From: Prorocentrum cordatum
Taxonomy: Eukaryota
DNA: 64,000 bases
NCBI GenBank assembly: GCA_963575745.1
Contig: CAUYUJ010000087.1
Span: 1-64,000 of the forward strand
Direction of reading: 5' to 3'
Shown piece by piece: positions 6,100-46,872 of the stretch. The translations under genes were made by a program, and so were the position numbers. How positions within the stretch are numbered: position 1 is the stretch's first letter; each line of letters opens with the position of its first letter. Below the pieces are notes generated by a model. That model did no database searches. It saw only the letters and a program-made list of their open reading frames with translations, and was not told the origin of the DNA.

Positions 6100-6175
6100 T
6101 AGCACGGTTAGACTTTGGATGGGGCCCGCGGAGCTCAAGGTGCCCTGCGTCCCGGTGCTATCGGCCAAGGACCGT

Positions 6176-6209
<34 letters not shown>

Positions 6210-7340
6210 ACTCGCCCCGCCCCCACTTTGCCCAGAGCGGCGGCGAGCCGCGACTCTGGATTCACGCGGGGCGCTGCTGGGCCCACGGGTTCGGGACCTC
6301 CCGCGGATGCACGAGGGACTCTTGCATCCCGGTGCTGTCCAGCATGGGCCGTCGGCCGCACGGGCGCGCGTCCTCCTACGGGGGCTCAGGGTACTCTTGC
6401 ATCCCGATGCTGTCTGACCAGGGCCGTCTGCCGCCACCCTTCGTGGGTGCTTCGTCTTCACCCCGCCCAGTGCGGCGGTTTCCGCGACCTTGGATTCACG
6501 CGGGGAGCAGCTGGGACTACGGGCACGGCACCTCCTCCCATTCTTCAGCAGCGGTCAGCGGCTCCCTGGGGTCCACAACACCACACCCCCCCATGGATGC
6601 GTCGGGCTTCGGGGTGGCAGCACCGCCCCCGGCGCGTCGGTCCACTGGCTGCTGGCTGCCCACCCTGAACCGCACCAGCAGTGGGAGATCGGCCGTTCGG
6701 CATCACTCTCCTCTCAGCGGCGGCTTGCTGCGCCCCCGGATGCCCCTCAGGGATGGCGGCCGTGCCCCCAGACAGGTGCACCTGGGATCATTTCGGTGCG
6801 CGGTGGCGTCTACCCCGCTAGGGCCCGTGCCTCCCCGCGGGGGCTCTGGGCCCTCTTGCGCCCCAGTGCTGTCTACATGGTCCTCCTGACGCCACCCTTG
6901 CGGGTGCTCCGTCTACACTCTACCCAGAGCGCGTCACCCACAGGCTCACAAACATCAGCGGCGATCAGCTGCGACCCTGGGGGACCACAATGCGACCCTG
7001 GATGCACGCGGGGGGCTGCCGAGACTACTGGCCCGGGGCCTCCCTCGGGGGCTCAAGGTACTCCTGCGCCCCGTGCTGTCGGCCAAGGGCCGTCACTCGC
7101 CACCCCCCCGCGCGCGCTCCGTCTTCACTCCACCCAGGGCACGCCACCCTCCGCCCACCCCCCGCGCACGCTCGGCGTTTGCCGCGCCCCGCGGTCCACG
7201 CGGGGAGCTGCAGAGGCTTCGAGCGCGAGACATCCCGCGGGGGCATTAGGCACTCCACGCGGGGAGTAGCAGAGACGACAGGCACGAGGCATCCCACGCG
7301 GGCACAGGGCACTCTTGCACCCGGCGCTGTCTGACAAGGG
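6100..7340 (+). repeat. Degenerate internally repeated region carrying the 29-bp element motif
   Basis: Recurring CACGCGGGG(C/A)GCTG and CTCTTGCAYCCCGGYGCTGTC blocks; GCGGCGATCAGCTGCGACCCTGG at 6958, decayed copies near 6240, 6549 and 6718. Confidence 0.6.
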
Positions 7341-8570: not shown

Positions 8571-8649
8571 CGGCAAGCCTTTCCTCGCCGCCAGGCAGGC
8601 GGGGGGGATGCTGCGGCCCACTTCCTGCCCTGTGGCAGGAAGTGAGCCA

Positions 8650-10502
8650 CGCCCCCCCCCCCGACTGCCTGGCGGTGAGCGCGACCTTGCCTGGTCACAT
8701 CTCTGCCAAGTAATACTGACTCTAGCGGCGATCAGCTGCGACCCCCGAGGACCAATACCAACCATCCCCGCTGAGGCATCGCTCTCCGCAGGAACGGACC
8801 AGCACTCAGCGCGGCCCGAGGTCCGCGGAGAGGCCCCCACCCGCCCCTCGGCGCCATAACCTTCGAAGGACCCACCCAATATTTCACTGACCTGAGCGGC
8901 GATCAGCTGCGACCCTGGATGACCAACCACTTCCCCTATCCCACGGGCGCGGGGGCCTGACCGAGGAGAGGGGCGGCTCTCCCCCCGCCTCTCTCCTCGG
9001 GGGCCCGGCGGGTGCCCCCCGCTCTTGGCCCCGGGGGCCGCCGACGCACTGTCCGACGTTGGCGGCGTCGCCCCCCCCCTGGGCCGCCCGCGCCCACCGC
9101 TGTACGTGGTTTGTTTCTTCACTCCCAGCGGCGGTCAGCTGCGACCCTGGAGGACCACGCGGTGGTCGTTGACGTTCCAGGGGCCTGGGTGGCAGTGTTA
9201 GCGGCGGGCTTGGCTTGACTTTGCGTCCGACGGCCCTCTTGTCTTCCACTGCGCAGCCCCCCCCCAGGCACACCGCCCTGAGACAACAGCACGCCCCGCC
9301 CGTTCCGGCGCCGCGCGCCCCGCGAGGTACAGCTCAACTTGTGCTCGCGGGGACCCACCCGCTCTGGCCCGGGTCGCCGTCACGGCACCACCACTTCCAG
9401 TGCACTCCATCTTTCTTTCCTCGCTGGCGACGCTCACCGCGCCAGCGGGTCCCCCCCCGCTCAGCGGCCGCCGCGCCGGCACGCGCTGGATGGCTCACAG
9501 TCGCTCGGTCACCCCCTGGCACTGTGACGTGGTCTGACTGGGGTTCGCCATGGCGCAGAGTGGTTCAGCCTTCCGCAGCAGGTGCAGTCCTACAGGCCCA
9601 CCTTCAGCCTCCCCAGCTTACTCTTCTCCGCTGGCGATGCTCACCACGCCAGCTGGTCTTCCCCCTTCACTCAGAGGCCTGACGCCGTGCCGACACGCAC
9701 TGCGTGGCTCACAGTCGCTTGGTTCCCCCTTGCACTGTGGGGTGGTCTGACGGGTGTTGGCATCGCCACGGAGTGGTTCAGCCTTCCGCAGCAGCTACAG
9801 CACCCCAGGCTCACCATCAGCTTTTTCCCAGTTGCGTGGCATCACGGTTTGCGACAGCTCAGCCCCCGTTGGCTAGCTCACGTCGTCATGGCGTTTGGAG
9901 CGCCCCACCGGCGACTCACTCCACTGGCCTCCCATTTGCCCCCACTCAGATTGACGGACTTGGTTATCCTGGTTCACGTCTCATACTGTGGCAGGCACTG
10001 AATTCCATGACATGTTGTCTGTACACGTGCTCGAGCTCTCAGAATACCCCTGCCGTCAGCTCCCCTTCAGCTTCGCGGCTGTTTTGTGAGCGGGCGGGCC
10101 AGCCTGTGCCTGTTGTAGCTAATTAGCCTCGCTCGTGCCCCGGACTTTGCTTCTCGCCGCCTGACCTTTGTCTCGCGGCCGCGACCGAAATAAGTATGCC
10201 CACCAGCCTTCGGCAAGCTCTTCGGTAGCTGCTCCCAGGCTGGGTGGCACTGCTGTACCTCCTTCCGCCTGCTGCCGCTTGCACTGTTTTTGGCTTCGCT
10301 ACGGGCGCGGCCCGCCCTAGCACGCTCGGCGTTCGACTCGTTTCGCGCGCCCGCGGACCAAAAGTATGCCCACCAGCTTTACGGCGCGGCCCGCCCTAGC
10401 TTGCTCGACGTTCGACTTGGCTGTGCGCGCCCGCGCACTAAAAAATTACGCCCACCAGCCCATCCAAAAGCAGTCACCGGGCGAGCTGCCCTGATCAAGG
10501 AC
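8650..10502 (+). mobile_element. 5'-truncated 3'-terminal copy (~1.85 kb) of the element at 33390-46162
   Basis: Collinear similarity with 44265-46162, including three 29-bp motifs and the terminus CCCACCAGCCCATCCA..GGCGAG..TGATCA. Confidence 0.8.
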
Positions 10503-10514
10503 GCTTAGCAACAT

Positions 10515-11100
10515 GCAGCCACGCTCTGGGAGCCTCTTGGGGCCTTCTTGGAGCCATGTCGGAGGCCTTCGGGGCTCTTTCGGGCCATCTTGGAGCTTTC
10601 TTGGAGCCATCTCGGAGGCCTTCGGTGCTCTCTTGAGGCCCTCTTTGAGGCCACCGGTCAAAGAAGGAGGAGTTCTGACTTACGGTCCCCCAGTTGCGTT
10701 CTTGAGGCCGTCGTTGGCCTTTCTTGGGCGATTTTTGAAGCCCCAAGAGACAAGCGGAAGCGAAAAGGCAAGAAGGCGAGAAAGCAAAACGCGTCGATAC
10801 CCCCTAGGCTTGGGAAGTATTCGGGCCTTTCGGGGGGGTCCTTGGGAGGCTCCGTGGCCACCTGGGGCCGTCTTAGGGGCGGTCGTGGCACCTCTTGGGG
10901 GGCCATGATGGAAGCTATCCTAAACCACCTTGCACTATCGTGTGTGATCTTGGAGGCAATATTGGCTCATTCGGGCCCTGCTGGGGCCAGATTGAGCATA
11001 TTGGACGTTCGGACATCTCGCGGCGCGCCCCGCCGTCCCCCCTCCCCCCAGACCCAAGGAGAAGGAGCAGGGATAGAAGTCAAGACTCCCTCCCCGCCCG
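10515..11100 (+). repeat. CCTCTTGGG-rich interspersed repeat (family D)
   Basis: Degenerate 10-11 bp TCTTGG units with an internal GAAGCGAAAAGGC block shared with other copies. Confidence 0.7.
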
Positions 11101-26677: not shown

Positions 26678-26680
<3 letters not shown>

Positions 26681-31497: not shown

Positions 31498-31603
31498 GCG
31501 CGCGGCTCCGAGGTTCAAGGTGAATCCAGGCGCGGCGATGACGGCGCTCGCGGAGAATCGCATACGGCTCAACGATTCTCAACGCTTCGCGTATCTCCAC
31601 AGG

Positions 31604-31641: not shown

Positions 31642-33380
31642 GTTGGTCGGCGCGACCTGGGTCCGCTGCCTCCGGGGCCGGCCGGATGGAGCCGCCCTGG
31701 GCGCGGCGGCGGCTGCGCCGCGCCGCCGGCCCACCGGCGCCCGCGCCGCTCCAGCGCCGCCCCCTGGCCAGCCGCCCGCTGGGTGGGCCGCCGGCCCTGC
31801 GGCCGCTGACGCTGGCTTGGCCGGCGACCGCTCGCGGCGCCTGCCCTCCGGGCGGGCCGCCGCTGGCGCGGCCGCCGCCGCCGCCGCCGCCTCCGGCGGC
31901 GCGGCCCTGCCGCTGCCGCTGCCGCCTGCCCGGCCGCCGCTGCCGCGGCCGCCTGCGGCGCTGCCCTGGACCCCGCGGAGGCCGCGGCGGCCGCCGGCCT
32001 CTGGCTGGCCGTCGCCGCTGGGGCCCGCGCGGCCCTGCTGGCCGCGCGCGCGGCCGCGCCCCATGTTGCCGCGGCCGCCCACTCTGCGGCGGGCGCGGGT
32101 GGCTCCGCGTTGGCGGCGGCAGCAGCGTCGGGCGGCGCCTCGGCCGCTGCGGCCGCGCCGCCGCCCGAGGGCGGCACCCTCTCGGGCCCTGCTTCCGCCG
32201 CCGCCGCCGCCGCCTCCGGCGGCGCGGCCTTGGGCGCAGCAGCCGCCTGCCCGGCCGCCGCTGCTGCTGCCGCCGCCGCCGCCACCGCTGCTGCCGCCGC
32301 CGCCGGCTCCCCTCCGGCGGCGGCGGCGGCGCCGTGGCCGGCGTGGCGGCCGCTGTCGCGGAACCCGCTGCCGCCGCCACTGCTGCCGCCGCTGCCGGCT
32401 CCCCGCCGGCGGCGGCGGCGGCTGGCGCGGTGGCCTGCGCCGCCGCGGCGGCGCGTGGCTTGCCCGACGGCTTCCCCACGGCCAGCCCTGCGGCCAGCCC
32501 CCCGGCCAGCCCGACTGCCAGCCCACGGCCAGCCCCAAGGCCAGCCTGGCGGCCTGCCCCCCGTGCTGCCCGACTGCCAGCCCCACGGCCCGCCCGACGG
32601 CCAGCCCGCAGGCCCGCCCCGTGGCCAGCCCGACTGCCAGCCCCACGGCCGGCCCCGTGGCTTGCCCTGCGGCCCGCCCCACGGCCAGCCCGACGGCCCG
32701 CCCGACTGCCAGCCCCACGGCCGGTCCCGACTGCCAGCCCGACGGCCAGCCCCGAGGCCAGCCCGACTGCCAGCCCGCGGCCAGCCCGTTGGCCCGCCCC
32801 GTGGCCAGCCCAACTGCCAGCCCCGCGGGCAGCCACACGGCCAGCCCCACGGCCAGCCCAACAGCCAGCCCGACGGCCAGCCCGACTGCCAGCCCCACGG
32901 CCAGCCCCGAGGCCAGCCCCACGGCCAGCCCCACGGCCAGCCGGACGGCTAGCCCCACGGCCAGCCGGACGACCAGCCCGACGGCCAGCCCCGAGGCCGG
33001 CCCGACTGCCAGCTCTGCGGCCGGCCCCACGGCCAGCCCCACGGCCAGCCCGACTGCCAGCCCCACGGCCAGCCCTACGGCCAACACGACTGGCAGCCCC
33101 ACGGCCAGCCCGACGGTCAGCCCGACTGCCAGCCCAACGGCCAGCCCGACTGCCACCCCCACGGCCAGTCCGACGGCCAGCCCGACGGCCAGCCCCGAGG
33201 CCAGCCTGACGACCAGCCCCGCGGCCAGCCCGACTGCCAGCCCGACTGCCTGGCCGGCCGCCAGGCCCACGGCCCGCTTGACGGCCAGCCCGTTGGCCCG
33301 CCCCACGGCCAGCCCCACGGCCAGCCCCACAGCCAGCCCGACGGCGAGCTCGACTGCCAGCCCCACGGCCAGTCCCAGTA
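31642..33380 (+). pseudogene. Retrocopy of an mRNA encoding (PTAS)n mucin-like repeats
   Basis: Follows the SL relicts; 12-bp CCCACGGCCAGC/CCGACTGCCAGC units at 32470-33378; upstream part extremely GC-rich and decayed. Confidence 0.6.
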
Positions 33381-33389
33381 CACTATGAG

Positions 33390-35980
33390 CAAGACGGGGA
33401 CAGCGTCCTGATCACCGGGCTTCCAGGCGAGCTGATTCTGACCCTCCTCGCGGGAGGCGTGGAACAACATTCCATCGACTCATGCACCCCCTTTTCAGCG
33501 CCCGTGCAGCTGCGCCTTCAAGACGGCCCTCGTGCCCGCAGGGCGCCATGAATGGTGGCGTAACCTCATGGAATACACCCCCTTCGGGAGCTCCTCAGTG
33601 CGGGACCAGTGGCCATACCTCGGCGTCGTGGCGGTGTCGCGCGCGGCGGAAGGTGAACAGCCACCCCCCAGGGGAGCGGCTCACTAAGGCGCAAGACGAC
33701 GCCCTCACAAGAGGAACATGGGAGCGCCCCCTCCCCAAGATGAGGGACAGGGCCATGGCCCTCCACCTAGCAAAAATGTCCCCCACCCGCACAGCCGCGG
33801 CATGGAACTCATACCTGGTCTCCCTTGCCCCCATACGCGGCCCACTACTCCAACCCCGACGTCGTACAAGAACGTGTCTCACGTGCGCAGCTCAGGGCCG
33901 CATTTGGGCTTGCTGCGGCGTCGTGGGTCCCTGACTTCATCCTTACGGGGCTAGGTATACGCTTCCAAGCGCCGGGCGCCCCAAGGTGCCCCAGTAGCCG
34001 CGGCTCGGGCCGTCCCAGCCAGAGCGCACGCCCTGAACGACTTCTGGGGGCCCATGCCAGCCAGAAAGCGCGCCAGAACTCGGTGGAACAAGCTATTGAA
34101 GTGGGCAGCCGAAGCCGCACCGCAACCAGACACGTCCCGACCCAAACCCAGAGTTATCACAGAGCGCAAGGCAGCGCTAGCACTCAACCGTGCAAGTGAG
34201 CAACACGAGCTACTGGAAGGAAAACACCTTGGGAAGGTTGTCTACGCCGCGGCATGGGCACAAATGCACAGCTCGCTGTTCACCAAATGGCTCACTGAAA
34301 CCAGTCAAAAGAGGAGATGGCACCCCTCGAACGGGGAGGAGTGGGGCCCACTGGCCCACTGCGCGTCCTACACGGAGGCCCACCACGTCATCCGCATACT
34401 GCGCAACGGCCTTCCAGGCTCTGCAAGGCGGAGAAGTGAAGTCGAGCGGCCCCCGCATCAATGTCCCTGCGGCGCGCGCGCCAAGTGCGTCTGGATCACA
34501 GCCGGGCCCGGCGACGAAGGCGACGCCTGGTGCGCCAGATGCAGAGGTCACGGGCCACACTCCTCTGCGCTTCGGCAGCTACTCGATCCGAACTCCCTGC
34601 CCATCGCACTACGGGGCCAGGCCGAAGCCTACGCCCACACTCAGGGCAGCCTACGGGCCCCCACCAGAGCGGGCCCAGGTGGTCATTGTCTCCTCTGCGG
34701 GCTTGGGGAGGCGTCGACAGAGCACGCGTGGCACTGGTGCCCGGCCGCCGCCCTGGCTTGGTACACCGCACGGGGCCCGGGCCATCCCGAGCCCCTTGCA
34801 CGGGCCATCACCTGCAACGGTGACCACCAACCCCTCCTTGCGAAGGTGCTTCACCAGATCTCCTTCAGATATTGCGTCAACCTTACCGCCACCCCCCTCG
34901 AGGCCAGTGATGCGGCCAGACTCATTCTTCAGGGCATCGTCGCCGCGGACACCGATCAGCAAGGCGACAGCGACGATGACGTCCACGACGGCGACGAGCC
35001 CCCGAGGCACGACAACCCGGACGAGACCGCCGTTTGGGCAACAATGCAAGATACCTGCCCCACGTGCCACCCGCGGCAGGACCATTTGCGGAGCCGCCAG
35101 GCCACACATGACCCGCCACGCGCGACGCGCCGGAGGAGAGGTGCGCAGGCTCCCGGTCGTCACCAGCCACTGCCGCGCAGGAGACAAGCTTGCAGTTATC
35201 CAGGCCACCCAGATGCGCGCGGGGTGGATGCTGCCCGGCCGAGGCTGGTTCCCCTGCCCCAGAACTGACAACAACCCCACGGCTAACTGGACGTCAGCAT
35301 ACTGCCGAGACTGTCGCGCACACACCACAACGCTGACGGCGAACACCGACCTTGAACCAGGGGACAAAATAACCGTCCGCAGCTCCCCCTTCCCAGACAC
35401 AGACAGCACCCAATGGCCATACGAAGTCACCTTCGATGGCGGCGCCCGAAGAATCGACGGCCGCACCAGGGTCTCAGGCGCAGGCACGATTTTGTGGCAC
35501 CACGACCCAGCGACAGGTACCCCCAGAATAGTGGCGGTTGCCATAGTAGCGCCCCCCGGATGCAGCAGCGCACAGATGGCCGAGGTAGTCGGCTGCCGCG
35601 CTGGACTTGCACTCCTCCCCCACCTCCGCGGCCCCCTGCGGGCCGCCAGGATTGTTGGGGGCAACTTAGCGGCCATCCGATATGGCGCTTGCACGGCCAG
35701 GCACAGGAGGCTACACCTGGCTCAGCAAATGGAGGACGCCCTCGCTCAGGCGGAGAACATTGGCTGGGTGCTTTCTTGGCAGGCCGTGAGGCGCCGCCTG
35801 AATAAGGCTGCAGATAGCCTTCGCCGCCCTTGGGGCGTTCTGGGCGGATGCTTTACTCAACGCAGGCGACCTTCGCAGTCCACACTCACATACATTGGGC
35901 AGAAGCCCGCACCGCCCTCCCAGCCCACTTCCCAACCGCGCAAGGTCTAGACATCGACCTTTGCGACCCGATGGCGTGTG
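33390..35980 (+). pseudogene. C-terminal part of LINE-type pol: RT thumb, Zn finger, RNase H
   Basis: WPYLGVV (~33610), AAAWNSYLVSLAPYAAHY (compare AARAYNINALPCLSYLAQFY in the other LINE), CLLCG..STEHAWHWC, RNase H VTFDGG (35435), AQMAE (35582), IVGGN, RRRLNKAADSL. Confidence 0.85.
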
Positions 35981-36146
35981 CCGCCGCCGCCGCCTTCCGC
36001 TTGGCCCCCCCCCCCCCCCCTCGCCCCTGGTCGCCCCTGGTCGCTGATCGAACGATCGCCCCGCCCGCCGAGGCCCACCCCGCAGCGGGCCGCGGCCCCC
36101 CAGCTTTTCAAAGTACTCTAACGGCGATCAGCTGCGACGCTGGAGG

Positions 36147-37088
36147 ATGCCCGAACGCAAGTGCAATCAAGGGCCGCTGGCTCGCTGGCCAGCGCACGAG
36201 GCATGTCGCCCAAACGGCCCCATACCCGCAGATGGCCCCCTCCCCTTCCGTGCCCGCGAATGCCCCTGGCTGCGTCGGGCACACTTCAACAGCGAATGGC
36301 GCCGGTGGTGCGAGCTCTGTCAGAAGCACTGTGACGGGAAGGAGCACCTGCTACAGTGGGACCACTGGCACGAAGGTGACAGGCAGTGGGAGAACGGGTG
36401 GCCCGACCCCCAGGATTTCATTCCTGCGGGCAACCTGTGGACCATGACGAACGGAAGGGAGTATGACCACGTCCACGACTGCAGAATCAAGGGGTACCCA
36501 TGGCGCGGGTGGAAGACGACGGAGCCGGAGAAGGTCCAAGGGCAACCCTACCTCCCCGGCTGGTCTTTCCCAGACGACTGGGATCACGTTCCCATCAAGT
36601 TTCCCTACAGGGATGACGACTTCGACTTTGCCACCCCTTCAGGCACCATCCATTCCACAAGGGCGCGCCCTCGCCAGCAGCTGAGGAGGACCTGGGCAAG
36701 GACGACCAGGGGTGGAGCGAGACCGATGGACGGGCCTCTTGACAGAGACACCCCCGGCCACGCCACCGCCCACCATCTGCACCCCCCAATCAGACACCCC
36801 ACCGGAGAGGACATGCCCAACGCCTCCAGCAGAGCATCGTCTCAGGAGTCAGCCGACAGATCACGCACGGAGGCACCCGAGGGAGAAGATCGCTTCGGCT
36901 ACGGAGACACGCCCCCATCAGGGGTGAGGGGGGTAATGCTGGAGTCGCCGGCCGCGGCTGCGGCCGATGCCGTCAGGCAGTATACTCCGCCCCCGCCAGC
37001 TGCGGAATCGCTCAGTTCCGTCTTCACGCACCACTGGGACAGATCCCAGATGCCGCCCTCCTCCCGCCACACTGGGCGCAGGATCTAA
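36147..37088 (+). pseudogene. Cargo N-terminal region with a C2H2/matrin-like Zn finger
   Basis: ATG directly after the 29-bp motif; WCELCQKHCDGKEHLLQWDH. Confidence 0.5.
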
Positions 37089-37199
37089 GGCAAAGAGGAC
37101 GGGCTCTCGAAAGCCTGGCCTGGACCGCGTGCACGGCGTCGACCGAGACCGTCTGGGGCAATTCCGTCAAGGCCAGGACAGACCTCATCAGAAGGCAGA

Positions 37200-39700
37200 G
37201 CTGAGCCCTGGTAGTTTCCGTCACCCCAATCGATGAGAACTCAGAGTGCGATACCCTCGACCGCTTCCAGCTGAGGAACGCCTTTCCACCCCAAGACGGG
37301 AAGGTGCTGCTACATCTACATTGGCCCTCGGCGTTCAGAGTCCTCCTCAAGGGTCAGGACGCGGGACAGGACGCGCACGTCCTCCTTCTCAGCCTCACCA
37401 ACCCAGCAGTGGACCAAGTCGCTTCCGTCAAACTTCTGAGCCCCCCGACCTCGGAGGCACCATCCTTCCGGGCGACTGCCAGGCACTGGGTTTCCCAACG
37501 GGCTCCCGGTACCCCAGCAACGAATGCATCGTCGTTCACAACACAGACAAGTTCGGAGTATCCCACGCAGATGACAGCATCGACCGGCCCACCTACGTAG
37601 GTGAACCATGGTACAGGCTGGACAGGGCGCCCTCCATGATTCAGTTTTGGCGGATCTCGGCTGCAATCACCGAGATCTACAGGCTGCAGCAGATCCCCCG
37701 CGATCTCATTGGCACCCCCCTGGACGTCATCACCTACCTCCTCACCTTCCGTACTGCCGACAAAAGGGACAAGGCTATCGCCAACGACGTCCTCAGCACC
37801 GCCAAGTGTGGGCAGGCTCTCCAGGCGCGTGCCAAAGCCACCCTGGAAGTCCGCTTCCCCTGCACCGACCTACCTGCGCCCGGTGCCGCCTCGGCGACGC
37901 CCACTCACCCCGCCGGACTTCCAGCCCCCCCCCCCCCCCCTTTCACCGACGCAGAGGTGGAGGACGCCACCGGGCAGGTGTTCCAGCGCGCCCGTGACCT
38001 ACCAGCACCGAAATCCCTGGAGGACGGAGCCAAGCGCCACAGTCTCAACCGCGACGCCACAAGGGACCTGGCAGCCTCCACCCGGCACCACGTGACGATC
38101 GCACATGGCCCCCCTGGCACAGGTAAGACAACTTTCTCGGTCGCAACCATGGACACATGGGCGGGCTCGCTCTTCCCCGGGTCGTCGGTCGCTCTGGCGG
38201 CAGGTTCCAACGCGGCCGCCGACCAGCCGGCACTGGCCCTACGCGCCGCTCACAAAGACAACAAACTGGCCTCCAGCACGGGATTCCCGTCCAAGTGCGC
38301 GCGCCTCGCCAAGGACTTTTAAGGTGGCCAAGGAGCTTGCCGGGCTCACCCCAGGAGGACACTACCAGGGGGCCAACGGCAGACTCCCCTACGAAGGCGG
38401 TTCACCCTCCAAGGACTTCCCCGCCTTCAGGACTCAGCTGCTCGAAGACGCGAAGACCGTCATAGCCACGCACGAATCTGCTGAAGCACTAAAGAAGGCC
38501 GCCCCAGTTGCCCTTCTCATCATAGACGAGGCAGGGCAGGCGCACGAGCTCACGGCGGCCATGTCCTTGGACAGTGTCATTCGCTCAGGAGGACACCTAG
38601 TGCTGGTCGGCGACCCCAAGCAGCTCCCCCCCACGGTCATCTCCAGAAAGGCAGCAGACCATGGGTTGTGCCTCTCCATCTTCGACCGTCTCCACCAGGC
38701 GTTAGGGGGGCACCAGTCAGCCGTGATACAGCTCAGCCTGTGTTACCGCCTGCACCCCCTGCTGCTGGCCTGGCCCAACTGGGTCTTCTACACCAACACA
38801 ATGCAAACCGGACTAGCTGACCCTCTGACTCAGAGGCCCCTAGTCAACGAACGGTCTACCATGGCAGGGTTTCCAGCCCTGGAGCAACGTCAGACTCGAA
38901 TAGCTATCGCATGCCGCCCGCACCACCAGCGACGACATGCACCAGATGCTGCGCAACCTGGACCCGGGAGAGCAACCCGCAGGAGAGCGGCACCGGTTCC
39001 TACTGGTCGCCAACCCTCCCCGGGAGGTTACATCCAAGCTACACGCAGGATGCGCCAACCTGCTGGAGGCAGCGCAGACGGTAGACATCACACGCGCCCT
39101 CCCCCCCGCAATGGAGGAGGGAGTCACGGTTCGGGCGGTCATCGGCCACCAGCTGCAGCGCGCCATCCTCGAGAACGGATGGCCCCAGAGCGCCTGCAGC
39201 GTCAGCGGCACACTCAGGCAGGCCAAGGCCAAAGGCAAAGGGAAAGGGAAGGACGAAATAAGCAAAGGGAAGGGCCCCGCCGCCCACCCCCCATCACGCC
39301 CCCACGACACAAGCGACTACGCCAGCGTCTTCGAGCAGAAAGACTCAGGACCCACGGGCATCTCCTTGCGGTTCCCAGGCGTTCGGCGCGTTGCAGAGGA
39401 TCACCTTGCAACCGGCAGGCTCACCCTCTCGACTATTGAGTCCAGCCAGGGCGGCGAAGCGGACCTGGTCATCTTCCTGACAACCAGGTCCAACAGGTGG
39501 CATGACTGGGGTTTCATGGACAACGCCAACAGGGTGAACGTGGCAATCACCAGAGCCACGCGCAACGTGATCATCATCGGTGACGGAAGGATGTTTGCCG
39601 CGGCCACGGGATCTCGCCTCCGTGAGCTCTCCGAGTACGGCCGCTTCGCCAAGCTGCGGGTACGCTTCCAGCACCCGGAGCACATCGGAAGTCGATGGAC
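37200..39700 (+). pseudogene. Upf1/DNA2/NAM7-like superfamily 1 helicase (AAA_11/AAA_12 type), frameshifted
   Basis: HGPPGTGKT (38104-38130), GSNAAAD, IIDEAGQA (38525), LVGDPKQLPP, SIFDRL, YRLHP, STIESSQGGEAD, GFMDNANRVNVAITRA (~39510-39560). Confidence 0.93.
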
Positions 39701-42700
39701 CCTCACTGTCGACGAGGGATTCGACCCCATCAAGGACCTCACCTCCTGGACCCCTGAATCCCCCTCGCACGCAGGAGACGAAGTCATCAAGGGGCTGGAC
39801 AGCGCGATAGTGAAAGCCCGAGCCTCAATGGAGAAGAACTTCGCAGACAAGATTGCAGCTCCGCTGGATACAGAATTTTCATGGACCTGCCTTGGAGACG
39901 CCATACGCAGCAGCCTGCAGAAACTCGTCGAAGACCCCGCCATGGGGGTGGTCATATACACCGTCTCTGGCCTACACCCCCACCAGTACTCCATGGCCGA
40001 CACACCAAGGCAGCCGGGCCTATTTGACCGCAAGGCATGGAGTCACTTAGGGTTCTGCTGCGACGTAGAAATGGGCATAGACGCCAGCAACCTCGTCTAC
40101 AACTTGACGTGGGCAGCCCTGGTATGGTTCCTCGGGCTGGGCACCCCCTGGGACGACAAGAGCCTAGCCGTCCCTGACGAGTCGCTCCCTTCCCTGCCCA
40201 GGGCGAAGGGCGTCAGCCACCGCCCGAAGGGCGCTAGCCGTTGCACCCCCCCCCCCCCCCCCCGAGGTCCTACACCAGTTTCCAGGGGCATGGAGCCAAG
40301 AGACGGGGAGATGCAGGAGGCACCGCGCACACCCAGGTATGCAGCACCTGAAGTCCCGACTTCGCACTGGCCAAGCCAACTCAGAGCTAAGACGCTCCCT
40401 TCTCAGCAGCGACGGCCGCCCCCTGGACACCCCCACACTCAGAGTCCTCCTCGTTGTCATGATGATCCAGCTGCGCGAGCCTCGGGCGACGCTCTGGCCC
40501 CTCCCACATCCAGAGGCCACTGGGGACATCATAGAAGCAGCCATGGGCATCTGCTTCCCTCGGCAGAACGTCCACCTCGAGCACAGAAACACCTTCGCAA
40601 GCGCATGGGGTTTCCAGCTGAGTGATCTAACCCCCCTACACGGGAAATTCGAGGACGCCATCAAGCACATCAGCACGCTCGCCACGTACGCCCACCACCA
40701 CAAGGTTGCAGCCGAGCACGGGTGCCCAAAAACCTGAGCCGGCATGCTGAAAAGCAAGTTCCCCCTGGAGGCCCCCATGTGGGTGCTAGAGGAGCTAGTC
40801 CAACCAGCCGCGGTCAGTCCCCTGGGCAAGAGCAAGTGCTCCATCTGCACTCTCCACAATGAACTCAGCGGGCCAGAGGAAGGGCTCGGATGCCCAGGCT
40901 CAATGCAGACCTGGAGTATATCGGAGGAGGAATTGCCATGTCCAACAGGCGGCTCGACGATGACTCCCCCGCTTCCCCGGCCCCCAGAAAACTTCTTATC
41001 CCGCCCAGAGTGAACGACGACAGGTTCCGCGTCGAGCAGGAAGATGGCCGCTTCGATTGCGATGGGGATGACTGCCCCAAAAATGGGACCAGGGGCACAG
41101 CCGGCACCTGGGAGGACGACGACACAAGGGAACTCCTCGCACAGAACCGCTCCCAAGCTCACTTGCAAGGCAAGAACTTCAGGCGGCTGTGCGAGCAGTG
41201 CTGGGCCAAGTCCGTGGATAAGAAAGGCTTCGAGGCCCCCCTCGCCCCATGCGACTGCGGCAACAAGAAGTCACTACCGCAGCGTCTGCAGGCATACAAG
41301 CGCGCAATGGATGAGACACGTCATAAGAAGAAGTCACGCACACTCCCGTCCTTGGATCGGCTCCCGATTGGATACGGGCGCCTTGACACGGCCCCGACCC
41401 CCACCAGCCTTTGCGACCTCGTCATGAAAGCCCCCTCAGCCACAGCCCCCGGGCCACTGGCACCACCCTACCTGCTCACAAGCTGTCAGACGGAAGGTTC
41501 GGGCTCGATTCGCCCCTCACGGGCACCTACTCTGCCCAATGCGACACCTGCCCAACAGGATCACCCTTGTTGGAGTGGGCGGTAAGCAGCCCAGCATTAG
41601 GCTGCTTCTTGTGGCGCCCAGAGCCCGAAGCATCCACCGTCTCCGAGACCGGGCGACGGCCTTGGGACCTCATGCCCACTCTTTGGACCCAGCGGCAGTG
41701 GCACGCCGGCTGGGCACGCAGGCGGTGCCTCATCCACATCTGGAACGTGGCCCCAGGCACGCTTGACCACATACTGGACCAGCAGTTCTCACGCGTATAC
41801 CCCACGGCACCAGCCAAGCGGGCAGCAACAGCAGAAGTGCAGACGGAGCGCCACGACATCAGCGTCTACCTCACTCCGGATTGTGCTAACGCTGCAGCCA
41901 CGGATGCATACACAAAGCCACCCGCCCCAACCAGAGCGCCGACCCCTCCTACCAGCACGGGCCAGGGCGGCCCCGTCGGCCCGTCGGGGAGAGTAACGGG
42001 TCAGGAGCTGCCGCACGAGACATCAAATCCATGTTCCCTGACATCTCCCCGCCGGCTGGGCCCGCCCTACCAACCCACTCCACCTCTGGGCTCACAGGGA
42101 AGGATTCAGGCTGCGCCTTACGCTCATTGGTCAAGTACCTCCTAGAGTGGAACCCCACCATTTACGGGAAATTGATGGAGTACGCGGAGCAATACGGCGT
42201 CGGAATACCGGGCGATAAGACCAACGAAGGGTCTTGGCCCCCCCAATGTCTTCGCCAATTCCTGGCCCACATCTACGGAGATACGATCCCCGATAACTGC
42301 CACACACACACACACACACGCACACCGGCATCCCATGGGACAGCCAGCGGGCCGCGGCGGCACGAGTAGCGCACCACCTAACGAGGGCCAACGTGATGCA
42401 TGAGACCAGGTGGCGTTGATACGCCGCCGACCTAGCCGAGCAGCGGGGCGAGTGCCCCCTCCGCCAGCGGCTCAGCACCCCATTACAATACCTCATGGGA
42501 ATGGATCCCACGGCCCTCGCCGACGGCACCATCAGAGAGCTGGCCAACCGAGATCCATTTCAGACGGACACGGACTACGTTCTGGCTGAACAGGACAGAC
42601 GCGGCAGCAGACACCCCCCCAGTAGACAGCCACGGCCCAGTATGGGAGGCAGCACCAGGCCGCCCCTCCAGGGCAGATCTACAGACCCCAGGCGACGACG

Positions 42701-43615
42701 GGGCCAACGACCCTCCAGCGGAAGGGCAAGGCTCTTGCGACCAGGCAGGCAAGGCCGAGGGTGAGCTGGATGCACCCGACTGGGATGAGGACGCGGCAAG
42801 CGAAGCAGCCACAGCCAAAGAAGCGAGCCCTGTTGCTAGCCCGACACCAGTCGCGGACGAAGGCGAGGAGGAAGTCTCCTCCGATTTACTACGCGCTTTT
42901 AAAAAACACGCCCCCAAAGGGCAAATCCTGGACCCCCCACTCACAGACCGTCGATCGAAATGCCGCCCTGGCGCTTCGGAGTGCCAAAGACAGCTCCGAG
43001 AAGGAAAGCAGCTCGGCCTGGGACATCACGGGGGCCAGGAACGACCGCGCCCTCAGCCGCGCGGCAGGAGACAAAGGGCGCCACCGGCCCGCGTCAGAGG
43101 ACATCAAAGACGGGGAAGGGCGCGCCGCCAAATCACAAAGGGGCAACCCCACGCGAGCGGAGAACAGCGGGACGCCCTGGAGGGACGTCAGGATCGCTCA
43201 GCCACACTACGAGAATCTGAACGACCCCATGGGATGCGGCCCCATGCACAGGCGCACCATCGCAACTGCAGACGTGGAGAGGGACGAGCCCATACAAGAC
43301 ATACTTATACGCTTACAAAAGACGCTGGGAGGCGCGTTCAATGGCATATGGCACGCATGGATTAAGCGGGCTGCCCTGAGGCAGGACCCCAGTGGAGGCC
43401 ACAAGAGCAACCCCAAACTGAACACACCCCAGACGTGCGCAGATTTCCTCGAGGCTTGGAGCAACGCAGGCCATGATGCTTACCGGATGGATAGTGAACT
43501 CGGGCTCGGCGTAAACTGGGCAGCAGTCAGGGACAAGCGCGCGAACTCCGAGCGCCACGACGCCCGCGCGCACGCCCCGCGTGACTACGGCAGCAGCAAC
43601 AAGCCCGCCCCATGA
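39700..43615 (+). pseudogene. Remaining cargo coding region (possible RNase III-like motif, Cys-rich fingers, unknown domains)
   Basis: Overlapping protein-like frames; TGDIIEAAMG (~40520-40550), CSIC..CPG, CDGDDC..LCEQC..CDC, final stop at 43615. Confidence 0.5.
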
Positions 43616-46199
43616 GCAACCGAGGGCAGAGCGGTCGCTCCCGCGGCTGCACAGGACCGCTGGGCTGGAGCCATCGGTACAGCCACCCCCAGCCAGTGGC
43701 AGGGCTGGCAGGAATGGACCGCGTGGGATCGGCGCGAAGCCCCACGGACGGACTCAGATTGGAAAGGAAGGGACAAGCGGCACTTCCCTAGGGGGGACGA
43801 CCGATACTCGGACAAGCGCGCCCGCTGGTGGGCAAAAGACGACTCCTACACCCAAGGCTGACTGCGCCGGACACGGCCCACCTCAGCGTCCCAGGGTTTC
43901 CTGCCCAAGGAAACCTGCCCCCCTCATCGGCTCCTCTCTGCCCCGAAGGGGCCAGTTTCACTCACTTCGCCGCGCCCGGCTCAGGCCGCAATACCTGGGG
44001 GCAACCTCCGCTGGGGCGTAGGCTAGCCCCACATCTCACCCACGGCGCGGCATAGCTAGACATCCCACACTGGACAAGTGGACCTGCCCTCCTTTTCGGG
44101 TCCGACGCGGAGAGCCCCCCCCCCCCCCCCAGCACCCGACATCTCACCCTCTCGGGCACGGCGGGGCCGGCCCGGCCCGGGCAGACAGGCCCCTGGCCCA
44201 TGCACTTTGCTGTCCGACGACGACAGCCAACCCGCCCGCCTGAGGCGGGGGGTCGGCCACTGAACCCCCCCCCTGCGCGGCGGCAGGCTCGACCTAGCCA
44301 GGTTACAGTTTTGGCTAGTACTGACTTCAGCGGCGGCCAGCTGCGACCCTGGAGGACCAACACCCACCATCCCCGCTGAGGCATCACTCTCCGCGGGAAC
44401 GGACCATCGCCCAGCGCAGCCTGAGGTCCATGCAGGACCCCACCTCCCTCGGCGTCATAACCCCCCAAGGCCCACCCACCATTTCATTGTCTTGAGCGGC
44501 GATCAGCTGCGACCCTGGAGGAACCAACAACCACTTCCCCTGCCCCACGGGCGCGGGGCCAGACCGAGGGGAGGGGCGGCTTTCGCCCCCCGCTCTTGGC
44601 CCCGGGGCCCGCCCGACGTTCTGACCGACGTTGGTGCTGTTGCCCCACCTCCCTGGGCCGTCTGTGCCCCTCGCTGCACGTGTTTTGTCTCATCGCGCTC
44701 AGCGGTGGTGAGCTGCGACCCTGGAGGGCCACGCGGTGTTTGTTGACGTTCTGGGAGCTTTGGCGGAAGTGCCAGCGGCGGGCTGGGTCTGACTTTGCGC
44801 CCGGTGGCCCTGCGCCTACCACTGTGCTGCCCCCCCCAGGCGCATCGCCCTTCGACAGCGGCACACCCCGCTCGACCTGTCTCTTGGGGGCCCACCTGCT
44901 CTGGTCTTGTTTCGCCATCACGGCACCACCACCTCCAGTGCAGCTCCCCCTCCCTTTCCTCGCTGGCGACGCCGGCGGGCTTCCCCCCCACTCAGTGGCC
45001 AGGCCTCGCCGGCACGCGCTGCGTGGCTCACAGTCGCTCGGTTACCCCCCGTGCGCTGTGGGGTGGTCTGACAGGGGCTGGCCTTGGTGCAGAGTGGCAC
45101 AGCCTTTCGCAGCAGGTGCAGCCCTACGGCTCACGACTGCTCAGCCTGTCCTGTCTGGCTGGCTCAGGTCGTCAGGGCGTTCGGAGCCTGGCGCCCCATC
45201 GGCGACTCACTCCACTGGCCCCCCACTTGCCATCCCCCAGCACGACGGGCTTGACCATGGTGGCCCTCGTCTCTCCTGTGTGGGTTGCGCTATGGCAAGC
45301 TTTGAATTCCGAGACACTTTGTCCTGTGCACGTGCTCGAGCTTGCAGGGCAATGTCCGCCGTCAGCTCCACCCCCCTCAGCTTCGCAGCTGCTGTCTGAG
45401 TGGGCCGGCCAGCTTGCGCCTGTCTTAGCTAATTCGCTTAGTTCGCGTCCCGGACTTTGCTCTTGCCGCCTGACCGTCGTCTCGCGGCCGCGACCGAAAA
45501 TGCATTCCCACCAGCCCTGCGGGGAATGGCGGATGCGGCGGATAAGGCCGTCCACGGTGGCCTTCGGCGTACACCAAGCGGCTGCCGCCGTGCAGTTCCA
45601 CCCTGGACGCCCCACCTTGCTGGCGATGTTCTCCCCCACCAGCTTGGCTTCACGCAGCGCTTCCGCTGGCGCCCGTGCAGCCGCGCGTGGATGGCCCCCT
45701 GCAGGATCGGCGGCTAGTCATTTTGCGCGGGTTGGCGGCCCCTGGAGGCCAGCCCGCTTCGAGTGGTTCAGCCTTCGCAGCCTCGGCCGCCCTCCGGGTC
45801 CACCCCACCCCCGGCTTGGTATTCGACGTTTCTCGGCGGAGCAGCACAGCTGGCGCGCACACGCCGTTGGCGCGGCTTGGGCGTGGCGCCCCACTGGCGA
45901 CGGCCCATCGCTTACCACGTCTGGTCGCCACAGCGCGTAACACAGAATTCCTTTGCATTTTGCCGCAGGGCTGCACGTTGCTCGAGCTTCCCTGGGCGTT
46001 CCAGTTCAGCCACCCCGCAGCCGCCCCAGCTGCCGCGTTTGTGAGCTGGCCCGGCTGGCTAGTGTTGCTCGCCGCCTGCGCGTTCGCTGGTGGCCGCGAC
46101 CAAACAGTATCCCCACCAGCCCATCCAGAAACGATGTCCAGGCGAGTTGAGGTGATCAGGGAAGGGCGGCAGCAAAGAGGAGGACGGCCGAACCGTGCA

Positions 46200-46372
46200 A
46201 AGGAGTGAGGAGGAGAAGGAGGAGGTGGATGGATGGATGGATGGATGGATGGATGAGGGAGTGGGAAGAAAGAGAATGAATAGGATGAGGAGGAGGCGGA
46301 GGAGGAGGAGGAGGAGAAGGAAGAGAAGGAGTGGGAGCAGGAAGGAGGAACAGGAGGAGGAGGAGGAGGGCA
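46200..46372. repeat. (GGAT)n and purine-rich simple repeats
   Basis: Direct reading. Confidence 0.85.
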
Positions 46373-46379
46373 AGCACAA

Positions 46380-46872
46380 GGGCCAGAGGTCTCTTGAATG
46401 CCTCTCAGAGCCTCTTGGGGTATCTCTTGGGCGATTATTGGTGGCCTTTTGGGACGTTTTGGGGGTCTCTTGGCGATCCTGGGGGGCTCTTCGGGGTCTT
46501 GGGTGCCTCGGGGGGGCCTTCTGGGGCCGCTTAGGGTATTTTTGGGGGCCTCTTGGGGCCATTTTGGGGCCTCTTGGGGCCTCCTGGGCGCTTTTGGGGG
46601 CCATCTTGGAAGAGATCGGTCAACGAAGGGGGGTCCTTAGTTACGCTCCCCCCCCAGGAGGCCAAAATGGCGCCAAAACCATTGTAAAATCAATGGTTGT
46701 GGCTTCCTCGCCGAGGCCGTTTTGGACGCTCTAACTACCCGCGGCCCCCCCCCGTCCAGGTCCACGGGGAGGGGGTAGGGGGAGGGGTAAACCCCTCCCC
46801 GAAGGGGAAGAGGGAGGGATGGAAGAGGAAACGCCCTAAACCACCGACGCCCAGAGGGCTGGTGGGATTTAT
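46380..46872 (+). repeat. Family D repeat with 3' stem-loop
   Basis: TCTTGGG units; terminal CCACC-GAC-GCCC-AGA-GGGC-T-GGTGG-GATT. Confidence 0.75.

What the first reader, a model, noticed from the sequence alone, without database searches (positions are those of the whole stretch)
36105..44730. A 29-bp motif brackets the cargo and repeats in the 3' region
Seen: GCGGCGATCAGCTGCGACCCTGGAGGACC-like copies at 36121 (its last bases form the cargo ATG at 36147), 44330, 44496 and 44702, and at 8725, 8896, 9128 and 6958. All are on the + strand and are separated by unrelated sequence of ~170-230 bp or 8.2 kb. Copies at 36121, 44330 and 8725 share an upstream AGTA..CT. Inference: a module boundary (cassette capture or template-switch site, RNA processing signal, or internal promoter/trans-splicing signal), loosely analogous to the ribozyme-delimited modules of bdelloid Terminons.
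Basis: partly seen in the sequence, partly recalled or inferred. Interest (0 to 1): 0.75.

Follow-up and report, generated by a model that had tools for sequence, protein, structure and literature searches.

The report
Repeated 29-base signal in giant LINE
A 29-base sequence recurs, always on the coding strand, just before the second gene and three times in the tail of a very large, decayed jumping gene (a LINE that also carries a helicase gene); it is probably an RNA-level expression signal, but no transcript data were available to show this.

Summary
There are eight + strand copies where chance expects none. Only five sites are independent, because the triplets at 8725/8896/9128 and 44330/44496/44702 are matching positions in two copies of one ~2-kb non-coding repeat.

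The "cargo" is not a captured cassette. It is a conserved ~2,540-aa SF1-helicase ORF, the second cistron of a giant non-LTR retrotransposon. Relatives keep the RT ORF and the helicase ORF together.
- Copy B (33.4-46.65 kb) is a decayed, 5'-truncated 13-kb copy.
- Copy A (8629-10691) is only the 3' tail.

The motif lies only in non-coding parts: it ends in the helicase start codon and occurs three times in the 3' UTR. A further copy sits in a ~240-bp repeat array near copy A. Spacers between the triplet copies are unrelated, so the conservation is specific to the motif. Each copy follows an AT-rich stretch, and 7 of 8 follow an AG. No RNA structure, ribozyme or Rfam family fits.

My best reading (about 0.35) is a splice-acceptor plus leader signal that gives the downstream cistron its own mRNA in a dinoflagellate-type, SL-trans-splicing host. 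Rivals are a protein-binding site, an internal promoter, template-switch homology, or a relic repeat. Transcript data are needed to decide. Interest is moderate.

The parts
33421..35950 (+). C-terminal ~45% of the LINE RT ORF (zinc-finger and RNase H-like part), 5'-truncated and decayed
   Evidence: tblastn of P0001-P0005 (1605-1815 aa, all with a PF00078 match) covers their residues ~760/967 to ~1558/1787, at 39-56% identity in the database search. The five P0001 segments lie in changing frames (4 changes). The stop is at 35948-35950.
35951..36146 (+). Spacer between the two ORFs, with a C16 tract (36005-36020) and a short upstream ATG at 35972
   Evidence: Sequence; C runs listed.
36121..36149 (+). 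Motif copy whose last three bases are the helicase-ORF start codon (ATG 36147-36149). It is preceded by AA, not AG, in this decayed copy
   Evidence: P0006 residue 1 aligns to 36147. Short relatives P0014 and P0023 start at the same Met, and P0020 and P0024 align within a residue of it.
36147..43861 (+). Decayed ~2,540-aa SF1 (Upf1-like) helicase ORF, the second cistron of the element; the true stop is uncertain
   Evidence: It is colinear with P0006 (2541 aa) from residue 1 to 2466, over 36147-43546, in 11 segments with 10 frame changes. There are 4 in-frame stops. Pfam finds AAA_11 and AAA_12. The last homologous frame stops at 43613-43615 and the next open frame at 43859-43861; that extension shows no significant match to P0006.
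44239..46652 (+). Non-coding 3' tail of copy B, ending in TCTTGGGGCC-type repeats and an oligo-C
   Evidence: Colinear with 8629-10691 in three blocks: 44239-45520, 46048-46162 and 46500-46652. Repeats; sequence.
44330..44358 (+). Motif copy 1 of the tail triplet (copy B)
44496..44524 (+). Motif copy 2 of the tail triplet (copy B)
44702..44730 (+). Motif copy 3 of the tail triplet (copy B)
8629..10691 (+). Copy A: a 2.06-kb copy that consists only of the 3' tail, i.e. a severely 5'-truncated copy
   Evidence: It shares its 3' end with copy B, and nothing upstream of 8629 is homologous to copy B.
8725..8753 (+). Motif copy 1 of the triplet (copy A), orthologous to 44330
8896..8924 (+). Motif copy 2 of the triplet (copy A), orthologous to 44496
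9128..9156 (+). Motif copy 3 of the triplet (copy A), orthologous to 44702
6125..7340 (+). Array of ~240-bp units (about five), each starting with a motif-like sequence; the near-perfect copy is at 6958-6986. A C31 run starting at 6179 lies at its head. Its relation to the LINE is unresolved
   Evidence: (unit similarity z=20-23).

Best explanation
Structure (about 0.85 confident). The motif is a reiterated non-coding, sense-strand element of a giant two-cistron non-LTR retrotransposon. In intact relatives the element has an ~1,800-aa endonuclease/RT ORF, a ~200-nt spacer, a ~2,540-aa SF1-helicase ORF, and a 2-2.8-kb 3' UTR. The window holds two dead copies. Copy B (33.4-46.65 kb) lacks the 5' half of the RT ORF. 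Copy A (8629-10691) is only the 3' tail.

When these copies were made, the active element carried nearly identical 29-mers just before the helicase start codon and three times at the head of its 3' UTR, set in otherwise unrelated sequence. That pattern implies selection on the 29-mer itself.

Mechanism (inferred, about 0.35). The AT/T-rich stretch, the AG and the 29-mer together act as an RNA 5'-end-forming signal. I think it is most likely a splice acceptor, for spliced-leader trans-splicing if the host is a dinoflagellate, as the relatives suggest. Cutting the long element transcript there would give the downstream helicase cistron a capped mRNA with a 25-nt leader free of upstream ATGs.

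The three tail copies would then yield tail-only RNAs sharing the same 3' end, or help define the end of the helicase mRNA.

Shown: the anatomy, the copy relationships, the motif-specific conservation, the sequence context, and the absence of RNA structure. Inferred: any processing event, the host's splicing biology, and the role of the tail copies.
For: Motif and its context:
- 8 of 8 copies are on the + strand against 0-0.26 expected, and none is on the minus strand at the same scan threshold.
- The motif occurs only outside the two ORFs.
- Non-orthologous spacers are unrelated (z<5), whereas the 29-mers match each other at 21-28 of 29 positions.
- Copies differ from the consensus by 1-5 positions, about what neutral decay of dead copies would give.
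- The 18 nt upstream are 59% A+T against a 36% background (permutation p=0.0007 on the five independent sites) and T-enriched (p=0.011). AG abuts the motif in 7 of 8 copies. CTGAC-type branch-like words occur in three copies.
- The spacer has an upstream ATG at 35972, which an acceptor at 36120 would remove.

The RT part and the helicase ORF:
- The RT part matches 5 of 5 long RT proteins found.
- The helicase ORF is colinear with P0006 from its first Met.
- Short relatives P0014 and P0023 start at the same Met, and P0020 and P0024 align within a residue of it.

The two ORFs belong to one element:
- 4 of 4 contigs with a full-length helicase ORF have exactly the lengths of contigs that hold an RT ORF of the P0001 cluster (15598, 27133, 26613, 24281). 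On the 15.6-kb contig the two ORFs would fill 13.06 kb.
- P0015 joins an RT-ORF piece to the helicase N-terminus.
- DNA contigs of run X1 cover all 30 bins of 33.5-46.7 kb at 80-99+% identity, so the whole stretch is multi-copy.

Copies A and B share the 3' end and differ in 5' extent.

Host:
- Its source names P0015 as Prorocentrum cordatum.
- Dinoflagellate nuclear mRNAs receive a 22-nt spliced leader (PMC12014239, passages read).
Against: - No RNA run holds the region, so no splice junction, 5' end or leader has been seen.
- Two of the eight copies (8896 and 44496, an orthologous pair) have GAG, a poor 3' splice site. The copy at the ORF start has AA.
- The branch-like words lie only 6-8 nt from the AG, closer than the 18-40 nt given as usual (PMC5029490, passage).
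- A generic acceptor does not need 29 conserved bases downstream. That length fits a sequence-specific binder or base-pairing partner at least as well.
- The three tail copies precede no ORF.
- No relic spliced-leader sequence occurs anywhere in the window. Copy A starts 96 nt upstream of its first strong motif copy, not at it.
- That the host is a dinoflagellate is inferred from one named relative, from PPR-type repeats and from GC content. The protein-atlas neighbours of the PPR piece that had a recorded taxon were mostly haptophyte.
- Motif against flank conservation between the orthologous A and B copies is only mildly different: about 90% against about 81% by my count on the alignment.
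Confidence: 0.4

Rival explanations
1. Binding site for an element-encoded or host protein. The 29-mer would be recognised on the element's RNA, for example by the RT ORF protein or by the zinc-finger-like N-terminus of the helicase protein. It would serve RNP assembly or 3'-UTR recognition before target-primed reverse transcription. The copy over the start codon would then regulate helicase translation.
For: - The conservation is long and sequence-specific, with no structure beyond a 5-bp hairpin.
- Three copies sit in the 3' UTR, where LINE reverse transcriptases that need a specific template are known to bind (recalled knowledge).
- The copies are strand-specific.
- The helicase N-terminus has a conserved Cys/His pattern.
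Against: - It does not explain the AT-rich stretch and AG upstream of each copy.
- The motif lies 1.9-2.3 kb from the 3' end, not at it.
- No binding data exist.
Confidence: 0.2
2. Internal promoter or monomer. Each motif-bearing unit would be a promoter module, like the Pr77 hallmark at the 5' ends of trypanosomatid retroposons or the ~200-bp monomers of the mouse L1 5' UTR. It would start sub-element transcripts for the helicase mRNA and for tail RNAs.
For: - The spacing is 166-240 bp and the orientation is always the same.
- T-rich words lie 10-20 nt upstream of most copies.
- A motif-bearing array lies upstream of + strand PPR-like repeats.
- Pr77 is a precedent for a short hallmark shared by LINEs and their derivatives (abstracts of PMC1874656 and PMC8190864 in the listing).
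Against: - A start inside or just before the motif would leave the helicase mRNA an extremely short leader.
- Promoters in a 3' UTR do not help a LINE.
- Copy A's 5' end is not at a motif.
- Nothing is known about promoters in this host.
Confidence: 0.15
3. Homology for template switching or recombination, like the R repeats of retroviruses or the TRS of nidoviruses. Identical 29-mers flanking the helicase ORF and the tail units would let the reverse transcriptase, or recombination, jump between copies. This would create or delete modules. It is the first reader's 'cassette' idea.
For: - Direct repeats bracket the 8.2-kb ORF.
- Run X1 has 2 contigs that join 44362 to 44495 and 1 that joins 44395 to 44490. 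These are family members whose first spacer is missing or replaced while the flanking motif copies stay.
Against: - No joint from ~36149 to ~44359 is among the 15 listed of 49.
- The helicase ORF stays with the RT ORF in diverged subfamilies.
- Copy A is explained by 5' truncation alone.
- The listed joints keep both motif copies instead of fusing them.
Confidence: 0.1
4. Relic without present function. The copies would be what remains of an old tandem repeat, or of a captured host fragment such as the conserved core of PPR repeats, kept alike by gene conversion or by recent origin.
For: - The 6958 copy sits in a true ~240-bp tandem array.
- The first 18 bases read as the PPR core codons for AAIS(A)CD minus one codon, and PPR-like repeats lie 390 nt downstream of 6958.
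Against: - The triplet spacers are unalignable while the 29-mers match at 21-28 of 29 positions, which neutral decay does not produce.
- Gene conversion needs longer homology than this.
- The PPR match scores 13, no better than three unrelated hits in the window.
- Translations through the motif give no PPR hit, while the true PPR pieces do.
- The spacing is not a multiple of the 105-nt PPR period visible in the sequence.
Confidence: 0.15

Closest known systems
Non-LTR (LINE) retrotransposons that carry an SF1 helicase (insect TRAS/R1 and Jockey elements)
   Same: A LINE that encodes a superfamily-1 helicase as an accessory function (PMC6338049, passages read; PMC5563155, abstract in the listing).
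   Different: - In the insect elements the helicase is a domain fused into ORF2 and is of viral origin.
- Here it is a separate 2,540-aa ORF downstream of the RT ORF. Its best Pfam matches are AAA_11/AAA_12 (Upf1-like), and it has its own conserved start codon.
- No reiterated 29-mer is mentioned in the passages and abstract I read on the insect elements.
Pr77 hallmark of trypanosomatid retroposons (L1Tc/ingi, NARTc/RIME, SIDER, DIRE)
   Same: A short conserved sense-strand sequence shared by a LINE and its derivatives, in an organism with SL trans-splicing. It acts in making the element's RNA 5' end (abstracts of PMC1874656, PMC3383444 and PMC8190864 in the listing).
   Different: - Pr77 is 77 nt long, sits at the element's 5' terminus, and doubles as an HDV-like ribozyme.
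- This motif is 29 nt (about 45 with its upstream context), is internal (inter-ORF and 3' UTR) and reiterated, and shows no ribozyme-like fold.
Trans-splice acceptor sites that resolve polycistronic transcripts (trypanosomatids, nematode operons, dinoflagellate SL addition)
   Same: An AT/pyrimidine-rich stretch and an AG lie directly upstream of a downstream cistron on a long transcript. A spliced leader is added to dinoflagellate nuclear mRNAs (PMC12014239, passages).
   Different: Known acceptors have no 29-nt conserved exon start. No junction has been observed here. Three of the four sites in the element precede no ORF.
Bdelloid Terminons
   Same: A very large retroelement with more than the usual ORFs and with short reiterated non-coding motifs.
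   Different: - As recalled, Terminons are built on Athena (Penelope-like) reverse transcriptases and have hammerhead ribozyme motifs.
- Here the RT protein family shows an APE-type endonuclease hit and RVT_1. No hammerhead or other ribozyme was found. There are two ORFs, not many.
Tandem promoter monomers of the mouse L1 5' UTR (recalled)
   Same: Units of about 200 bp in one orientation inside a LINE's untranslated region.
   Different: L1 monomers are homologous along their whole length and lie at the 5' end. Here only about 45 nt are shared and the units lie in the 3' UTR.

Membership tests
Non-LTR (LINE) retrotransposon | Reverse transcriptase of the LINE type in the element's ORF | tested here: met
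   The window copy lacks the RT domain itself because it is 5'-truncated. However, 33421-35940 aligns to residues ~760/967 to ~1558/1787 of five proteins that each have an RVT_1 (PF00078) match.
Non-LTR (LINE) retrotransposon | Endonuclease (APE or REL type) N-terminal to the RT | tested here: inconclusive
   Exo_endo_phos_2 scores E=5e-4, below the curated cut-off, in 1 of 3 relatives scanned (P0002, residues 196-306). That part is absent from the window copy.
Non-LTR (LINE) retrotransposon | Copies share the 3' end and are truncated to different extents at the 5' end | tested here: met
   Copies A and B end together (10691 / 46652). A starts at the equivalent of 44239 and B at ~33421. Only two copies were available.
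Non-LTR (LINE) retrotransposon | Target-site duplication flanking the insertion | tested here: inconclusive
   Only 7-nt matches were found near the ends of each copy. By my estimate that is about what chance gives for two 100-nt windows.
Self-cleaving ribozyme boundary (hammerhead or HDV-like, as in Terminons, PLEs, L1Tc, R2) | A conserved catalytic fold detectable by covariance model or by folding energy | tested here: not met
   No ribozyme family reaches E<=1 in the whole window or E<=10 in 44100-45000 and 35950-36400. Folding z-scores run from -0.5 to +0.65 for the eight copies. Only a 5-bp hairpin is shared, and no pair changes on both sides. Cleavage itself was not tested.
Splice (cis or SL trans) acceptor site | AG preceded by a pyrimidine/AT-rich tract and a branch-like sequence | tested here: inconclusive
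   AG is present in 7 of 8 copies. Upstream A+T is 0.59 against 0.36 (p=0.0007) and T is 0.32 against 0.17 (p=0.011). Pyrimidine enrichment is only marginal (p=0.05). Two copies have GAG. Branch-like words lie only 6-8 nt from the AG.
Splice (cis or SL trans) acceptor site | Transcripts joined to a leader or upstream exon exactly at the AG | not testable with these tools
   No RNA run was listed for the stretch; the three runs that could be laid are DNA contigs.
Tandem repeat / minisatellite | Units homologous along their whole length | tested here: not met
   For the tail triplet, the spacers of different units are unrelated (z<5). For the separate array at 6125-7340 the feature is met (z=20-23).
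PPR-repeat coding sequence | Translation recognised as PPR, with a ~35-aa period | tested here: not met
   No PPR hit in 6 of 6 translations through motif-bearing regions at E<=10. Two of the four pieces from the neighbouring PPR-like region (7350-8713) give PPR_2 at E=6e-4 and 1.4e-3.

The most novel reading that the evidence does not exclude
The 29-mer is the cistron-delimiting signal of a modular giant retroelement of dinoflagellates. It would work as a dedicated acceptor-plus-leader unit (or a TRS-like unit) that both generates subgenomic RNAs for each module and provides the homology through which the reverse transcriptase gains, loses or swaps modules. On this reading, the motif-PPR-tail arrangement at 6958-10691 would be an element that carries a different module between the same signals.
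Probability: 0.1. Interest if true: 0.8.

Novelty: new variant of a known kind. Interest (0 to 1): 0.45.

Why it matters
How a 13-16-kb LINE transcript lets ribosomes reach a second, 7.6-kb ORF is an open mechanistic question. Here a sharply conserved 29-mer sits exactly at that ORF's start codon, which gives a concrete and testable candidate for the answer.

If it proves to be a splice-acceptor/leader or promoter unit, it would be one of very few defined cis-regulatory elements in a dinoflagellate-type genome. According to the 2013 review I read (PMC5029490, passages), no promoter element has been firmly established there. A working unit would also be a compact part for transgene design.

The LINE itself is worth describing. 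My three literature searches listed no paper describing a dinoflagellate LINE with a separate giant Upf1-like helicase ORF. If the motif turns out to be only a family-specific UTR repeat, the finding is ordinary transposon anatomy.

Tried and rejected
Searches that found nothing:
- Whole-genome search: no genome is held for this window.
- Public collections: the degenerate 25-mer found 0 matches in metagenome contigs and 0 in viral contigs.
- Relatives of P0006 in metagenome contigs: 47 pattern matches, none confirmed.
- Sequencing runs: no RNA holder was listed. There is one DNA holder (X1, share 0.30) and two runs of the same study with next to none of the words. I laid all three. X2 and X3 matched almost only C-runs, and I disregard their 36027-to-40244 'joints' as low-complexity artefacts.
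- Protein search with a spurious ORF through tail motifs 2 and 3, meant to fish other copies: none scored at E<=0.01.
- Exhaustive search with the helicase N-terminus: 19 hits, mostly short fragments.
- Earlier findings of this scan: nothing by place, sequence or words.

Ideas tested and dropped:
- tRNA genes: none found.
- Ribozyme or structured RNA: rejected.
- Relic dinoflagellate spliced leader: 0 matches at up to 3 mismatches, and 0 for its 3' half.
- Poly-C tracts as unit ends: C runs of 9 or more also lie inside the helicase ORF and elsewhere in the window (15 C runs and 10 G runs).
- Target-site duplications: not detectable.
- tRNA primer-binding site, snRNA or 7SL similarity: considered by eye only and dropped; there was no support from Rfam.
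- Protein-level similarity between the sequences upstream of the two tails: none.

Full report
**1. The observation**

With up to 3 mismatches, the 29-mer GCGGCGATCAGCTGCGACCCTGGAGGACC occurs at 6958, 8725, 8896, 9128, 44330 and 44496. All six are on the + strand, and none is expected in 100 shuffles. The 18-nt core adds the copies at 36121 and 44702, giving 8 of 8 on the + strand against 0.26 expected.

A gapped scan of both strands at one threshold finds the same eight, seven weak + strand hits, and nothing on the minus strand. The last bases of the 36121 copy are the ATG at 36147. An alignment of all copies with 60-nt flanks shows a sharply conserved block of about 30 nt, with semi-conserved bases for about 18 nt upstream and little else.

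**2. The copies are not all independent**

Self-comparison shows that 8629-10205 is colinear with 44239-45520 at about 80% identity. Two further colinear blocks follow: 10388-10501 with 46048-46162, and 10527-10691 with 46500-46652. The two triplets are therefore the same three positions in two copies of one ~2-kb non-coding repeat. That leaves five independent sites: three tail positions, the ORF-start copy, and 6958.

Upstream of 8629 and 44239 the two loci share nothing, at either DNA or protein level.

**3. What the surrounding sequence is**

*The RT part.* The stretch 33421-35950 matches the C-terminal 45% of five 1,605-1,815-aa proteins at 39-56% identity. Each of these has an RVT_1 match, and one has a weak APE-endonuclease match. 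The window copy starts in the middle of that ORF, right after a GC-rich satellite, and changes frame four times. It is a dead, 5'-truncated LINE.

*The helicase ORF.* 196 nt after the RT ORF's stop codon, the ATG at 36147 opens a reading frame that is colinear with a 2,541-aa protein (P0006, 49% identity). The match runs from P0006's first residue to residue 2466. In the window it takes 11 segments with 10 frame changes and 4 in-frame stops. Pfam finds a Upf1-like SF1 helicase, AAA_11/AAA_12. Short relatives P0014 and P0023 start at the same methionine, and P0020 and P0024 align within a residue of it. This is therefore a cistron with its own start, not part of a polyprotein.

**4. The 'cargo' belongs to the element**

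Three lines of evidence link the helicase ORF to the RT ORF.
- The four long members of the P0006 cluster lie on contigs of 15598, 27133, 26613 and 24281 nt. Members of the P0001 (RT) cluster lie on contigs of exactly these four lengths. On the 15.6-kb contig the two ORFs would fill 13.06 kb. That these are the same contigs is an inference from length alone.
- P0015, which its source names as a Prorocentrum cordatum protein, joins a piece of the RT ORF directly to the helicase N-terminus.
- DNA contigs of run X1 cover all 30 bins of 33.5-46.7 kb. Of 7,006 contigs laid, 471 are at 99% identity or more, 921 at 95-99%, 2,268 at 90-95% and 3,346 below 90%. The whole stretch, helicase included, is a multi-copy family of mixed age. 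Many of these contigs fall on the satellite at 45.8-46.7 kb, so the counts are not copy numbers.

The same run shows single-base insertions and deletions relative to this copy, for example at 36980, 38848-38850 and 41441. This fits frameshift decay here.

**5. The two loci**

Copies A and B end together, at 10691 and 46652, after TCTTGGGGCC-type repeats and a short C run. They differ in how far they reach upstream. That is the classic pattern of LINE 5' truncation. The simplest reading is that B is a 13.2-kb truncated copy and A is a 2.06-kb copy consisting only of tail. Target-site duplications could not be shown.

On this reading locus A is not an element with swapped cargo.

What this does not explain is the near-perfect motif copy at 6958, which lies 1.67 kb upstream of copy A. 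It is one unit of a ~240-bp array of roughly five units (6125-7340). The units are mutually homologous (z=20-23), and the other units begin with degenerate versions of the motif. PPR-like repeats on the same strand lie between that array and copy A.

**6. Properties of the motif**

- *Position.* It lies only in non-coding parts of the element and only on the sense strand.
- *Conservation.* Between different positions of the triplet the spacers are unalignable (z<5 against shuffles), yet the 29-mers match each other at 21-28 of 29 positions. Each differs from the consensus by 1-5 bases, about what neutral decay of dead copies would give. The active element must therefore have carried nearly identical copies. 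This argues for selection on the 29-mer itself.
- *Upstream context.* The 18 nt before each copy are 59% A+T against a 36% background (p=0.0007 on the five independent sites) and T-enriched (p=0.011). An AG abuts the motif in 7 of 8 copies. CTGAC-type words recur.
- *RNA structure.* Nothing beyond a 5-bp hairpin, and that hairpin shows no compensatory change. Folding energies equal those of shuffles (z from -0.5 to +0.65 for the copies; -0.35 and -1.6 for the two 0.7-kb tail heads). No Rfam family matches, including at lax thresholds on the two key regions.
- *Spliced-leader relics.* The window has no relic of the dinoflagellate spliced leader. The leader sequence is confirmed in PMC12014239.

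**7. How it most likely works**

A eukaryotic ribosome cannot easily reach a 7.6-kb ORF that follows a 5.4-kb ORF. The spacer between them also contains an upstream ATG. The element needs a device to express the helicase, and the only strongly conserved non-coding sequence sits exactly at that ORF's start.

The AT-rich stretch and AG, the sense-strand restriction and the likely host all point one way. The host evidence is a relative named as a dinoflagellate, together with the fact that dinoflagellate nuclear mRNAs receive a spliced leader (PMC12014239, passages). I therefore read the unit as a splice acceptor followed by a conserved 25-nt leader. Cutting there would release a capped helicase mRNA. 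I put this at about 0.35.

There is real evidence against it:
- no RNA evidence of any kind;
- GAG in one orthologous pair and AA at the ORF-start copy;
- branch-like words too close to the AG;
- no reason why an acceptor should need 29 fixed bases;
- three tail copies with no ORF behind them.

The rivals are a protein- or RNP-binding site (0.2), an internal promoter in the manner of Pr77 or L1 monomers (0.15), a functionless relic, possibly PPR-derived (0.15), and homology for template switching (0.1). For template switching, the only hint is 3 X1 contigs in which the first tail spacer is missing or replaced while both flanking motif copies remain.

**8. Comparison with known systems**

- LINEs with SF1 helicase domains are known from insects, but there the helicase is fused into ORF2 (PMC6338049, passages; PMC5563155, abstract).
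- The closest functional analogue of the motif is the trypanosomatid Pr77 hallmark (abstracts in the listing). Pr77 is terminal, 77 nt long and ribozyme-forming, which this motif is not.
- The Terminon analogy (recalled, not read) fails on RT type, on ribozymes and on ORF number.
- My three literature searches listed no paper describing a dinoflagellate LINE with a separate helicase ORF or this motif. I did not read bioRxiv supplements or subscription journals.

**9. Verdict**

The motif is real and specifically conserved. The bracketing of the 8-kb ORF is real. However, the ORF is the element's own second cistron, the two triplets are one feature seen twice, and the ribozyme/cassette analogy is not supported.

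It is a new variant of known LINE anatomy with an unresolved but testable function. I rate interest at 0.45.

Noticed in passing
window 15110-20760 (+): A second, unrelated LINE with an RVT_1 match (E=1.8e-10). Its protein-atlas neighbours carry APE endonuclease domains. A zinc-finger-like C-terminus is shifted into another frame. It has no motif copy and no similarity to the RT ORF at 33.4-35.9 kb.
   Followed up: partly
window 10181-10470 and 45490-45516, 46096-46133 (+): A second short motif recurs in the tail: three times in copy A and twice in copy B, again in dissimilar surroundings. Its consensus is roughly GCGACCRAAA.AGTAT.CCCACCAGCC. I saw this by eye. An ungapped search with up to 3 mismatches finds only one copy.
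   Followed up: partly
window 7350-8560 (+): PPR-like repeats with a ~105-nt period are spread over several frames and interrupted by a 270-nt T-rich tract (7600-7870), so this is probably a pseudogene. Sub-threshold PPR_2 hits and PPR atlas neighbours support the assignment. The first 18 bases of the 29-mer resemble the PPR core codons AAIS(A)CD minus one codon, but the DNA match is at noise level.
   Followed up: partly
window 45848-46700 (+): The TCTTGGGGCC-type repeat and the (GGA)n/(GGAT)n tract at the end of copy B have summed contig depths of 5,500-16,600 in run X1, against 30-300 elsewhere in the stretch. This is a very abundant satellite, or a tail common to many elements. A similar repeat lies at 12090-12490.
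   Followed up: no
window 31496-33388: A 1.9-kb block of 77% G+C short-period repeats, open in all six frames (one frame reads ASPT repeats), abuts the 5' truncation point of copy B.
   Followed up: no
window 51002-52308; 58414-59335; 20843-22133 with 30010-30300: Three further tandem arrays: a ~140-bp repeat at 96-97% identity (51.0-52.3 kb); a short-period array (58.4-59.3 kb) that also matches 26569-26678; and ~100-bp repeats after the first LINE that recur near 30.0-30.3 kb.
   Followed up: no
window 4225-4339; 716-740; 911-933: A 115-nt near-perfect palindrome gives sub-threshold miRNA-precursor hits on both strands. Two C12-G13 / C12-G11 homopolymer palindromes are also present.
   Followed up: no
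window 8600-8650 and 44225-44262 (+): Just upstream of the tail homology, both copies have a stem-loop of different sequence, followed by GCCAC and a C run. This may be a conserved structure at the head of the tail, or chance.
   Followed up: no
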